Positions 21,115-28,671 of a stretch of DNA of 64,000 nt are shown piece after piece. The notes under the pieces are model-generated. The model saw nothing but the letters and a program-made list of their open reading frames with translations. It had not been told where the DNA came from and made no database searches. The translations under genes and the position numbers were made by a program. This stretch comes from Octopus vulgaris. Taxonomy: Eukaryota. The stretch covers positions 72,106,001 to 72,170,000 of the forward strand of contig OX597824.1 of NCBI GenBank assembly GCA_951406725.2, written 5' to 3'. Numbering within the stretch: the first letter of the stretch is position 1; the number at the start of each line of letters is the position of its first letter.

Positions 21115-21843
21115 GGGAAACTCTTGATTAGGACAACCTGAGAGAAGCTATTGATTGATTGGGACTTAGCCTCAGAAGAGAAGCTCTCCCTGAGGGCTTG
21201 GCCTATGGGTAATTCTTGGTGAAGGCTTGGCCTGAGAGGAGAAGCTCTTGATGAGGTTTCAGCCTGAGAGAAGCTCTTGACAAGGTCTTGGTTTGAGAGG
21301 AGAGGCTCTCGATGAGGTCTCGGCACGGGAGGAGAAGCTCTCGATGAGGTCTCGGCATGGGAGGAGAAGCTCTTGATGAGGTCTTGGCCCGGGAGGAGAA
21401 GCTCTCAACGAGGTCTCGGTCCAGGAGGGGAAGCTCTGGACGAAGTCTCGGCCTGGGCAGGGAAGCTCTTGACAAGGTCTTGGCCCGGGCGGGGAAGATC
21501 TCGACGAGGTCTTGGCCTGTGTGGGGAAGCTCTTGACCTGTGTGGGGAAGCTCTTGACGAGGTCTCGGCCTAGGGAGCGAAGCTCTGGACAAAGTCTTGG
21601 CCCAGGCGGGAAAGCTCTCGACAAGGTCTCGGCCCAGGAAAGGAAGCTCTGAATGAGGTCTCGGCCCAGGAAGGGAAGCTCTCGACGAGGTCTCGGCCCA
21701 GGCGGGAAAGCTCTCGACAAGGTCTTGGCCCGAGCGGGGAAGCTCTTGACGAGGTCTCGGCCCGGGTGGGGAAGCTCTTGAAAAGGTCTCGGGCCGGGCA
21801 GGGAAGCTCTCGACGAGGTCTCAACCTGGGCGGGAAAGCTCCC
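21115..21843. repeat. GC-rich 32-bp minisatellite, ~22 copies
   Basis: Unit gaagctctcgacgaggtctcggcccgggcggg repeated contiguously with no spacers. Confidence 0.95.
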
Positions 21844-22336
21844 AGACCATCATCACTCACATCCTCAACCAACATTCTACTGCAGGTGTTTTCAAAATGA
21901 AGTAGGTGAAACCATAGCAATGTATTTGCTACCACCATTTGAACTCAGAGTACAGAGAGCTGGAATGAATAGTGCAAGGCATTCTGTTATTCTAATACCT
22001 CTTCCAGCTCATAACTACATAATTAAATGAATGAATATGTGTAAATGTAAATATTAATAGAAATGAGTTTAATAGGCCAGAAAATTATAATATTACCATA
22101 TATGAAACCAGCATTATGAAAATAATTGAAAGAAGCCAAAAAACAAAAAAAAAAACAAAACTTAATGACGCTTTAACTTAGAGAGGTATTATGGTAAATC
22201 ATTTGATATCCTGCTGACTGGGTTCATTTATTTCTCAACAATGTGGATCTGGGACTGTCATATCTGAGTTTCAATGAATGTACTTCATCTTTTATTTTAG
22301 TCATTGTTTAGATATTACCTCACCATGAACATATCA

Positions 22337-26694: not shown

Positions 26695-27482
26695 TGTGTG
26701 TGTGTGCATATGTATTATATGAATACTTGTGCATATATATATATATATATATATACATAGATGTACATGTGTGTACGAATGAGATTGTGTGCACCTTATG
26801 TGCACAGAAATATAACTTATATATATACACTTATGTGTGTGTGTATCTATACATGTCTACACACACACACACATGCTTGTATGTATACTTGTGTTTATAT
26901 ATTTATATATGAATGTGTGTATACATCTGTAAGTAAATATTTTTATGATCTCTGATGCTAATGTGTACAAATTCATGTGCACTAGTCTTGCTAAGTTTAT
27001 AAGTATTTCTAGCTATTCAAATGTAAATTTGTACATTTACCTGCCCAACCATACCTGTTCAACTATATATGAAATTACTCACGTATGTGGTTATCTTTGT
27101 CATTATCATCGTTTTGCATTTATTTTCTATGCTGGCATGGATTGGTCAGGCTGTCATGATCCAGGTGAATTCCTGTTCAGAGTTATTGCATTTATAGATG
27201 GATTAAAGGAGCATGTCTTACATATGTCTTACTTAATTTGGTATGGGTTTTTATGGCTTAATACCCTTCCTAATGCTGGCCATTATATAGTATGAACATG
27301 ATGCATTTCATTGTGGCACCAGCATTGTTTTCATTTATTTACATCACTACATAGATCTCTGCCTAACTTTTCACACACAGTGCTCAAAAGTTTTTTCAAG
27401 CATTTCAGTCATCTACATAATTCAGTGATTCAAGCATGTGCTGCTTAGAAGGTTTTTTTTTTAAAAGAACATAAAGATAAGC

Positions 27483-27942
27483 TACAAGCTACAGTAACAT
27501 CCGCCGTTAGTGGTTAGCCATATTTAGATGGCAAATATACTTCACATTGTTGTGCAGTAACTGTTTATACCTTGTTCAGAGATTTGTTATTGCTTGTATA
27601 CACTTTTTCGAGATCAGTAACGAAAAGTTACTGGAAAAAGGATATATGTATTCGCATTGGGACACCTTCGCATCGAAGACCGGTAAATGTCATGCACTGA
27701 TAACGGGTAAATATCCAGAAACCCGGGTCCGTGTGTATCACGTCAGGTCGACGATGGGAAGGATGGCTTCCATTTGCAAATGCCGATAGGGCACAGAAAG
27801 TGTGTCAATAGCCAGCTGGAGAAGATGTTCTGGGGCTACAAGCTGCAGTAACATCCACCGTTAGTGGTTAGCCATATTTAGATGGCAAATATACTTCACA
27901 TTGTCGTGCAGTTACTGTTTATACCTCGTTCAGAGATTTATT
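27483..27942 (+). mobile_element. Retrozyme-like insertion: ~1.3 copies of a 354-nt unit with a hammerhead motif
   Basis: 110-bp direct repeats at 27481-27590 and 27835-27944 (6 mismatches, period 354). TSD ataaagataagc at 27471-27482 and 27943-27954. Internal hammerhead-like core. Confidence 0.7.
27691..27735 (+). ncRNA. Type I minimal hammerhead ribozyme motif (core variant, possibly inactivated)
   Basis: catgca-CTGATAA-c-gggta-aa-tatcc-a-GAAA-ccc-ggg-TC^-cgtgtg. Stem II gggta/tatcc, palindromic stem III ACCCGGGT, GUC cleavage triplet ending at 27729. G8 of the CUGANGA core is A in this copy. Confidence 0.6.
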
Positions 27943-28247
27943 ATAAAGATAAGCATTTTCTTCATAATATTTCAAAATGTATTCAAACAACAGATATTTG
28001 AAGGAGAAACTAGTTTGATTTATCAGCTGAGTCATTGGTAACATGTAACTTGAGTAGTGAAATTATGAGTCTTTCAGTTACAATATATGAAAGAATGCTC
28101 TACTCCTATGCATGCATGTATGCACATGAATGTATGTACTTGTGTCTATGTATATACCTATGTGTATGTATATACCTATGTGTATCATCATTATTTAACA
28201 TCCATTTTCCATGTTGGCATGAGTTGGACTGTTGGTGTATCTATAAC

Positions 28248-28279
<32 letters not shown>

Positions 28280-28303
28280 CTATATATATATTCACATTAG
28301 ATG

Positions 28304-28442
28304 CAGTGTACATTTAAACACATGAGAAATCCACTCATGGGATTCAACACGCTAGAAAGAACAGCTAGGTTCTATAAACACAAAATTAGGGATAAAATTC
28401 GACAGGAATGTTGCTGGATTTCTCGTGTTTAAATCTACACTG
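28304..28442. mobile_element. Small Tc1-like MITE
   Basis: ~30-bp TIRs cagtgtacatttaaacacatgagaaatcca / tggatttctcgtgtttaaatctacactg; TA on the right, TG on the left. Confidence 0.65.
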
Positions 28443-28671
28443 TATCTTATGACTAATACATAGTCTTTTGGACTAAATTTTTACACGTTAGACCACTGGA
28501 AATGTAAATTTTAATTAATTTCTATTTCCCTTTGATATGATTATATATTCACATCTGTATATTTGTGTGTGTGTGTGTGTGTAATGGATAAAAACTTGTT
28601 AAGTCTGAAACAGTGTGAAAGGAAATGCAGAAGTAAAGACAGGATGACAGTTGAAGTTTTACTTTATATTT

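What the first reader, a model, noticed from the sequence alone, without database searches (positions are those of the whole stretch)
27471..27954. Retrozyme-like insertion: 1.3 turns of a 354-nt structured unit with a hammerhead, bounded by a 12-bp TSD
Seen: 110-bp terminal redundancy (27481-27590 vs 27835-27944, 6 mismatches), so the insert is a circular permutation longer than one 354-nt unit. TSD ataaagataagc. Type I hammerhead layout at 27691-27735 with palindromic stem III ACCCGGGT and a GUC site. Further hairpins: cagtaac/gttactg inside ctttttc/gaaaaag, gccat/atggc, cttcg/cgaag, ggcaca/tgtgtc, and gatgtt..aacatc, which only closes across the unit junction. No ORF, no tRNA head, no poly-A. 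Known: metazoan non-LTR retrozymes and Penelope pLTRs carry minimal type I hammerheads with palindromic stem III that cleave as dimers, and retrozymes accumulate as small circular RNAs. Inference: this is the genomic footprint of a circular RNA reverse-transcribed more than once around and inserted by target-primed RT, possibly an uncatalogued cephalopod retrozyme family. The G8>A change suggests this copy is inactive.
Basis: partly seen in the sequence, partly recalled or inferred. Interest (0 to 1): 0.85.

Follow-up and report, generated by a model that had tools for sequence, protein, structure and literature searches.

The report
Penelope-driven mini hammerhead retroelement copy
This is one decayed copy of a 357-base, protein-free jumping element that carries a hammerhead ribozyme motif and occurs at least hundreds of times in this genome; its copies end at two fixed points and often sit as mirror-image pairs, so it was likely copied and inserted by a Penelope retrotransposon enzyme, possibly from a circular RNA.

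Summary
Observation confirmed: 110-bp redundancy with 6 mismatches, 12-bp TSD, type I hammerhead layout, G8>A. The insert belongs to a dispersed family (875 exact hits of one 35-mer). The usual unit is 357 nt. Most copies keep the hammerhead core (54 of 78), and the stem III palindrome covaries. Copies are not random permutations. 109 of 119 3' ends fall at two sites about 45 nt apart, while 5' ends are scattered. Inverted two-arm insertions pair one site with the other (59 of 75; same site twice, 2). TSDs peak at 12 bp in AT-rich DNA. This is the Penelope 'tail' signature of internal reverse-transcription starts, so a Penelope enzyme acting in trans is the likely mobiliser. No sequence-linked partner was found. 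A circular template is plausible (about 45%): arms reach 2.2 turns, no arrays or fixed 5' end were seen, and copying runs through the cleavage site. It is not shown: some turns are chimeric, and RNA reads, probably from another species, looked like read-through. Two sister families share the design. Verdict: new member of a known kind. The scan earlier noted similar mini-Penelope insertions in a shark genome (not checked here).

The parts
27471..27482 (+). Left target-site duplication ATAAAGATAAGC (last GC shared with the element's 5' truncation point)
   Evidence: family TSD mode 12 bp
27481..27944 (+). Whole one-arm insertion: 1.3 turns of the unit, 5' end an arbitrary truncation, 3' end at site S2
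27481..27834 (+). One unit (354 nt here, 357 nt in most copies)
27517..27532 (+). Hairpin GCCAT...ATGGC, about 15 nt upstream of site S1; GCCAC/GTGGC in the other subfamily; a GCCA...TGGC hairpin is kept in both sister families
27604..27640 (+). Nested hairpin CTTTTTC / CAGTAAC-GAAAA-GTTACTG / GAAAAAG; the loop reads GAAAA or its reverse complement TTTTC between subfamilies
27683..27741 (+). Type I hammerhead motif: extended stem I, core CTGATAA (G8>A at 27702), 4-bp stem II on a C-A mismatch, palindromic stem III ACCCGGGT, predicted cut after C27729; predicted inactive in this copy
27835..27944 (+). Terminal redundancy (second turn, unit positions 1-110)
27900..27902 (+). Site S1 (unit 66-68): first preferred 3' end of the family, inferred reverse-transcription start
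27903..27944 (+). 'Tail' between S1 and S2; S2 (unit about 107-120) is this copy's 3' end and the second inferred start site
   Evidence: tail defined in PMC11167929 and PMC8557442
27943..27954 (+). Right target-site duplication (first AT shared with the element's 3' end)

Best explanation
The insert is a dead copy of a non-autonomous 357-nt hammerhead retroelement that was likely mobilised by a Penelope-like (PLE) reverse transcriptase-endonuclease, and its RNA template was possibly a circle. Shown: dispersed family; two fixed 3' ends about 45 nt apart; scattered 5' ends; inverted two-arm insertions with one arm ending at each site; about 12-bp duplications in AT-rich targets; both arms nearly always of the same variant type; arms up to 2.2 turns that pass the hammerhead cut site without a pile-up. 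Inferred: the enzyme, probably a dimer, nicks both target strands about 12 bp apart. It primes cDNA inside the RNA at S1 from one nick and at S2 from the other. Both cDNAs usually stop early and are joined head to head. Where only one survives, a one-arm copy like this one results; here synthesis from S2 ran 464 nt, which produces the 110-bp redundancy. Inferred with about 45% odds: rare two-hammerhead loci give dimeric transcripts that self-cleave through the palindromic stem III and are circularised, and the enzyme runs round that circle. The confidence figure is for the identity and the PLE-type insertion, not for the circle.
For: Copy number: 875 exact 35-mer hits and 140 exact intact-core hits, reversed-pattern controls 0. 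Ends: 109 of 119 3' ends in the set anchored at unit 5-39 lie in unit 59-74 (54) or 100-123 (55). Of 75 two-arm insertions: S1+S2 59, S1+S1 2, S2+S2 0, other 14. Non-simple TSD >=8 bp: 27 of 75 two-arm and 13 of 97 one-arm elements, against 6 of 600 mismatched flank pairs; 15 of 40 are 12 bp. Microsatellite within 30 nt of an end: 96 of 172, control 282 of 1720. Arm junctions overlap by short shared sequence in 40 of 75. Arms differ at 32 of 433 diagnostic sites against 47% for random pairs. Some S2 arms are short or do not overlap the S1 arm (for example L125, L140, L166), so neither arm is a fold-back copy of the other. Autonomous RT+GIY-YIG elements in this genome show the same two ends, inverted arms and (TA)n targets. 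Hammerhead: 94.9% of cells pair against 25-65% for slid controls; stem III has double changes in 10 and 9 of 24 copies; 74 of 114 stem III hexamers are palindromes. For a circle: only 3 of 48 arms at risk end in the bin holding the cut site; longest arms 762-775 nt with scattered 5' ends and no array of 3 or more units; successive turns share rare variants at 0.28 per 100 sites, arms at 0.27, same-type pairs at 0.06; three homologous families keep a 353-362-nt period; mussel retrozymes of 350-390 nt are abundant circles (PMC7229834, section read).
Against: No autonomous PLE with a matching terminal repeat was found in 62 stretches around GIY-YIG hits. A by-eye likeness to the tail of the 781-aa PLE failed its shuffle test (103-384 of 500). 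Against a single circle: successive turns differ at 104 of 788 diagnostic sites against 53 of 787 for arms, and some are plainly chimeric (L297, 8 of 10 sites; also L018, L026, L028), so those templates held two different units, or switching or conversion occurred. Shared rare variants would also be expected from young linear tandem sources. In the anole PLE, hammerhead cleavage is not needed and uncut RNA is the main substrate (PMC11167929). Three raw RNA runs, probably from another species (97% of laid reads under 90% alike in X21), gave 107-237 reads per 12 million. They lay on both strands, 80-92% ran on into unlike sequence, and no start or end piled up; that looks like read-through, not an abundant circle. 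The array search scored only 40 of 5128 candidates. Rfam sees no hammerhead, and stem II rests on a C-A mismatch.
Confidence: 0.8

Rival explanations
1. Same element and same PLE enzyme, but the template is a linear uncut RNA: read from a partial-tandem or unseen array locus, or extended by template jumps between RNA molecules. The hammerhead is then incidental to copying.
For: Chimeric turns, with twice the diagnostic mismatch seen between arms; cleavage-independent copying in PMC11167929; no circle signal in the RNA laid; autonomous multi-kb PLEs also keep hammerheads and form partial tandems.
Against: No array of 3 or more units in about 212 elements held; no pile-up of long arms at one 5' position, as a fixed transcription start would give; no linkage break or damage at the cut site, as end-to-end jumps between cleaved monomers would give.
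Confidence: 0.45
2. The copies are 5'-truncated terminal-repeat stumps (solo pLTRs) of an autonomous Penelope element that was not found.
For: The ends, tail, inversion and targets are those of PLE stumps; only 150 of 6136 GIY-YIG candidates were scored.
Against: Arms that run past one unit continue into the same unit again, up to 2.2 turns, never into an ORF. Flanks shared between loci were Tx1/L1-type LINE or other repeats.
Confidence: 0.1
3. One reading: a circular RNA primed at arbitrary points and inserted by a generic target-primed reverse transcriptase.
For: Terminal redundancy, TSD, hammerhead, varied 5' ends.
Against: 3' ends at two sites in 109 of 119; strict S1+S2 pairing; no poly-A.
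Confidence: 0.04
4. An ordinary TRIM/LTR derivative or a tRNA-type SINE.
For: Direct terminal repeats and a TSD in this one copy.
Against: No fixed 5' end, redundancy of varying length, inverted arms, TSDs near 12 bp, no tRNA head.
Confidence: 0.02

Closest known systems
EN+ Penelope-like element insertions with pLTR, inverted 5' copy and tail (Frangieh 2024 PMC11167929; Craig 2021 PMC8557442; Arkhipova 2013 PMC3846280)
   Same: Two internal start sites that define a tail, tail at one end only, inverted arm, partial tandem, TSD of 8-15 bp, AT-rich and (TA)n targets, hammerhead with palindromic stem III upstream of the start sites.
   Different: No ORF; the whole element is a 357-nt unit. The tail is about 45 nt against the 30-40 reported. 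No partner with shared sequence was found. The near-strict S1+S2 pairing is counted here.
Metazoan non-LTR retrozymes (Cervera and de la Pena 2020 PMC7229834; Li, Clavereau, Pollet 2026 bioRxiv 10.64898/2026.07.22.740005)
   Same: Protein-free 170-400-nt unit with a type I hammerhead, long TSDs, co-occurrence with PLEs; the mussel units are 350-390 nt; the 2026 preprint argues that such elements are non-autonomous PLE derivatives.
   Different: Here the copies are mostly under one unit, dispersed and often inverted, not dimer-to-multimer arrays. Circular RNA and cleavage are not shown. The PLE link here comes from insertion ends rather than from a tree of pLTRs.
Non-autonomous Chlamys elements such as MRC1 (PMC8557442, passage read)
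   Same: ORF-less PLE dependants that form pLTR-like redundancy.
   Different: The paper reports canonical hammerheads absent from most Chlamys elements, and those dependants generally share their 3' end with an autonomous family.

Membership tests
Type I hammerhead (metazoan minimal form) | Core CUGANGA, GAAA, NUH in the family | tested here: met
   54 of 78 segments not selected on the core carry it intact
Type I hammerhead (metazoan minimal form) | Intact core in the window copy | tested here: not met
   G8>A at 27702 with C3 unchanged; A at 27696 breaks the first stem I pair
Type I hammerhead (metazoan minimal form) | Three stems; weak palindromic stem III | tested here: met
   94.9% of cells paired; stem III double changes CCCGGG/CTGCAG/CTCGAG. 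The double changes reflect a few subfamily events, not many independent ones.
Type I hammerhead (metazoan minimal form) | Match to an Rfam hammerhead model | tested here: not met
   No hit at E<=10 for this copy or for an intact copy
Type I hammerhead (metazoan minimal form) | Self-cleavage | not testable with these tools
   Needs in vitro transcription; only 1 of 9 Xenopus dimers cleaved in the 2026 preprint
EN+ Penelope-type insertion | Two 3' ends separated by a tail, tail on one end | tested here: met
   109 of 119 ends; S1+S2 in 59 of 75 two-arm insertions
EN+ Penelope-type insertion | Inverted 5'-truncated arm and partial tandem | tested here: met
   44 of 75 anchored elements are two-armed
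EN+ Penelope-type insertion | TSD and AT-rich or microsatellite target | tested here: met
Autonomous Penelope element | RT plus GIY-YIG ORF | tested here: not met
   No ORF in the unit or colinear with it
Non-autonomous PLE derivative | Sequence shared with the pLTR of an autonomous PLE | tested here: inconclusive
   None in 62 stretches; only 150 of 6136 GIY-YIG candidates scored
Metazoan non-LTR retrozyme | Short ORF-less unit with type I hammerhead and TSD over 4 bp | tested here: met
Metazoan non-LTR retrozyme | Tandem dimers to multimers with a hammerhead in each unit | tested here: inconclusive
   9 of 30 loci from a search aimed at long copies span two colinear hammerhead regions (core letters displayed for only two of them); none read from the pattern-anchored sets; no array of 3 or more units
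Metazoan non-LTR retrozyme | Abundant circular RNA | tested here: inconclusive
   Raw reads were probably from another species, with unknown selection; low, both strands, no pile-ups
TRIM/LTR element or tRNA SINE | Fixed ends on both sides, or a tRNA head and A-tail | tested here: not met
   PBS/PPT not searched

The most novel reading that the evidence does not exclude
A lineage of 355-nt hammerhead RNA circles (at least three sister families) is copied directly by a Penelope enzyme dimer. The dimer needs no RNA 3' end: it starts at two internal sites, one per target nick, and can run more than twice round the circle. The covarying stem III palindrome may act as a like-with-like RNA dimer key that loads both subunits with the same variant. 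This would explain how animal retrozyme circles return to the genome.
Probability: 0.35. Interest if true: 0.75.

Novelty: new member of a known kind. Interest (0 to 1): 0.45.

Why it matters
How animal retrozymes are reverse-transcribed and inserted is proposed but not shown, and the function of Penelope hammerheads is open. This family ties a retrozyme-like unit to the Penelope tail mechanism through its insertion ends. It gives counted rules: one arm per start site, a 12-bp stagger, the same variant on both arms, and read-through of the cut site. A very young sister family (97-99% identical copies) and intact 781-aa PLE frames in the same genome make the circle-versus-linear question testable. 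The single copy in the window is an ordinary dead insertion.

Tried and rejected
Rfam: no hammerhead hit. Partner search: flanks shared among the first 100 loci were segmental copies, Tx1/L1-type LINE frames (zf-RVT, zf-CCHC) or other repeats. 62 stretches around GIY-YIG hits gave only independent neighbouring insertions (L202, L217, L221, L275). The tail likeness to the 781-aa PLE was rejected by shuffles. A Pfam accession recalled from memory was not in the library. Cleaved linear monomers as template: rejected as the main route, since there is no 5' pile-up and no linkage break at the cut site. Fold-back origin of the second arm: rejected by non-nested arms. Junction-closing hairpin as evidence for a circle: rejected. 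One search used a structure string that was one column off; one search replaces it. One search was inflated by a minisatellite in L018 and by flank-contaminated sites; replace it. Run search: no RNA holder listed. Reads that 'go back' across the unit junction are not evidence for a circle, because the same junction exists in DNA. Rows dropped: 11 of 183 loci. Nine were duplicates; L087 and L167 were dropped by mistake and would add one two-arm 'other' and one one-arm S2. 20 duplicate loci were dropped. Literature searches listed no paper describing this family; repeat databases (Repbase, Dfam) and the supplements of PMC13282606, PMC8557442 and the 2026 preprint were not seen and may hold it under another name.

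Full report
Observation. The described features are at the stated places: a 110-nt direct repeat 354 nt apart with 6 mismatches, the 12-mer ATAAAGATAAGC on both sides, and a type I hammerhead layout at 27691-27735. The unit folds better than 100 of 100 shuffles. It has no tRNA gene and no ATG frame over 47 aa. Rfam gives no hammerhead hit.

Family. The window lies in a 2.8-Gb genome of 227 contigs; the organism was not determined. The insert has 4218 first-look candidates. A 35-mer has 875 exact hits and an intact-core 34-mer has 140, both with 0 for the reversed control. Copies carry a median 3.4% rare letters, so the true number of segments is likely in the thousands (inference). The usual unit is 357 nt; this copy lacks 3 nt and is a mosaic of two subfamily types. 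I analysed 172 elements in three sets: best hits to the insert, hammerhead-anchored, and anchored at unit 5-39. 40 more were added later (212). The pattern-anchored sets favour young copies, and the best-hit sets favour long and mosaic ones.

Ends. In the set anchored at unit 5-39, 109 of 119 3' ends fall at unit 59-74 (S1, peak 66-68) or 100-123 (S2), while 5' ends are spread over the whole unit. 75 of 172 elements have two arms pointing outwards. Their ends are S1+S2 in 59, S1+S1 in 2, S2+S2 in 0 and unclassed in 14. Non-simple duplications of 8 bp or more flank 40 of 172 elements, against 6 of 600 control pairs; 38 more lie in simple repeats and cannot be judged. The commonest length is 12 bp, in 15 of 40. 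Microsatellites lie within 30 nt of an end in 96 of 172, against 282 of 1720. The window copy is a one-arm S2 insertion.

Comparison with Penelope. Frangieh et al. (PMC11167929; parts 1-2 of 4 read) show that the anole PLE protein nicks both strands at AT-rich DNA, is predicted to be a dimer, and starts reverse transcription at two internal RNA sites whose interval is the genomic tail; hammerhead cleavage was not needed. Craig et al. (PMC8557442; passages) and Arkhipova et al. (PMC3846280; passages) describe the inverted 5' copy, the tail at one end, TSDs and the (TA)n bias. This genome holds RT+GIY-YIG elements, many with an open 781-aa frame, and two such families show the same two-end pattern. 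No sequence link to the present unit was found in 62 stretches, and a tail likeness seen by eye failed a shuffle test. PLE mobilisation is therefore inferred from the insertion anatomy, not from a partner.

Two arms. Terminal segments of the two arms differ at 32 of 433 diagnostic sites, against 47% in random pairs. Short or non-overlapping S2 arms exclude fold-back copying. Both arms are thus best read as separately primed on the same RNA variant, one from each nick, and joined at short shared sequence (overlap in 40 of 75).

Hammerhead. The core is intact in 54 of 78 segments not selected on it, and G8 is kept in 74 of 82. On 24 copies the three stems pair in 94.9% of cells, against 25-65% when slid. 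Stem III changes as a palindrome (CCCGGG 31, CTGCAG 38, CTCGAG 5 of 114), which fits the dimer-active form described in PMC4209133 (passages); these are a few subfamily events. Monomer folds of three intact copies take an alternative form that hides stem II. The window copy has G8>A and a broken first stem I pair and is predicted inactive; the role of the C3-G8 pair is described in PMC11167929.

Circle or line. For a circle: only 3 of 48 arms at risk end in the 20-nt bin with the cut site. A search aimed at long copies found arms up to 775 nt (2.2 turns) with scattered 5' ends, nine loci spanning two hammerhead regions and no array of three units (40 of 5128 candidates scored). Successive turns share rare variants as often as arms do. 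Linkage does not break at the cut site. Mussel retrozymes of the same size are abundant circles (PMC7229834; one section and passages). Against: turns mismatch at 13% of diagnostic sites versus 7% for arms, and several are clear chimeras. The RNA laid, probably from another species and of unknown selection, was sparse, on both strands and truncated like the genomic copies. I put the circle at about 45%, linear tandem or jumping templates at about 45%, and the rest at 10%.

Sister families. Two homologous families were found beside PLE loci. One has a period of about 353 nt and copies about 92% alike to the query. The other has a period of 360-362 nt, copies 97-98% alike, and arms to about 2.6 turns. 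Both have a hammerhead-like motif with a palindromic stem III, inverted arms and two ends. The young one has a U3/A8 core with ACATGT, the same core as the 781-aa PLE, which is a lead only.

Novelty. The 2026 preprint of Li, Clavereau and Pollet (parts 1-3 of 5 read) already argues that animal retrozymes are non-autonomous PLE derivatives, mainly in vertebrates and from pLTR trees. Six literature searches listed no description of this family, and an octopus repeat annotation (PMC13282606; passages) does not mention ribozymes in its main text. Supplements and repeat databases were not seen. Verdict: new member of a known kind, interest 0.45; its value lies in the counted insertion rules and a testable circle hypothesis.

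Noticed in passing
L246-L265 (query L202:20-265): Young sister family, 360-362-nt unit, 97-98% identical copies, 3014 candidates, hammerhead-like core UUGAUAA...GAAACAUGU (U3/A8), same two-end and inverted-arm pattern; best target for RNA tests.
   Followed up: partly
L226-L245 (query L221:195-345): Second sister family, about 353-nt period, 1384 candidates, stem III palindrome ATCGCGAT; shares the GCCA...TGGC hairpin before S1 and a CTC...GAG hairpin before S2.
   Followed up: partly
L214:430-5672, L215, L216, L222: Young autonomous PLE with a 781-aa RT+GIY-YIG frame preceded by a separate 359-aa open frame, 456-bp pLTRs 99% identical, U3/A8 hammerhead-like motif and a tail of about 40 nt; many intact frames.
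   Followed up: partly
window 27615-27633 and family unit 142-146: The hairpin loop reads GAAAA in one subfamily and its reverse complement TTTTC in another, which suggests a micro-inversion of the loop.
   Followed up: no
L018 (G000:C23:42842943-42843745): A 50-bp minisatellite of about 16 copies grown from the hammerhead half (unit 192-245) inside a two-arm insertion.
   Followed up: no
L017/L045 and L066/L097: Copies that share 1.2-1.4 kb of flank with Tx1/L1-type LINE frames; nested insertions that were later duplicated or carried along.
   Followed up: partly
window 21206-21849 (- strand): Two overlapping stop-free frames of about 200 aa with a repeated proline/arginine-rich motif, probably a GC-rich tandem repeat.
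   Followed up: no
window 28295-28321 / 28425-28451: 27-bp inverted repeat (89% complementary) 103 nt apart, possibly a small MITE.
   Followed up: no
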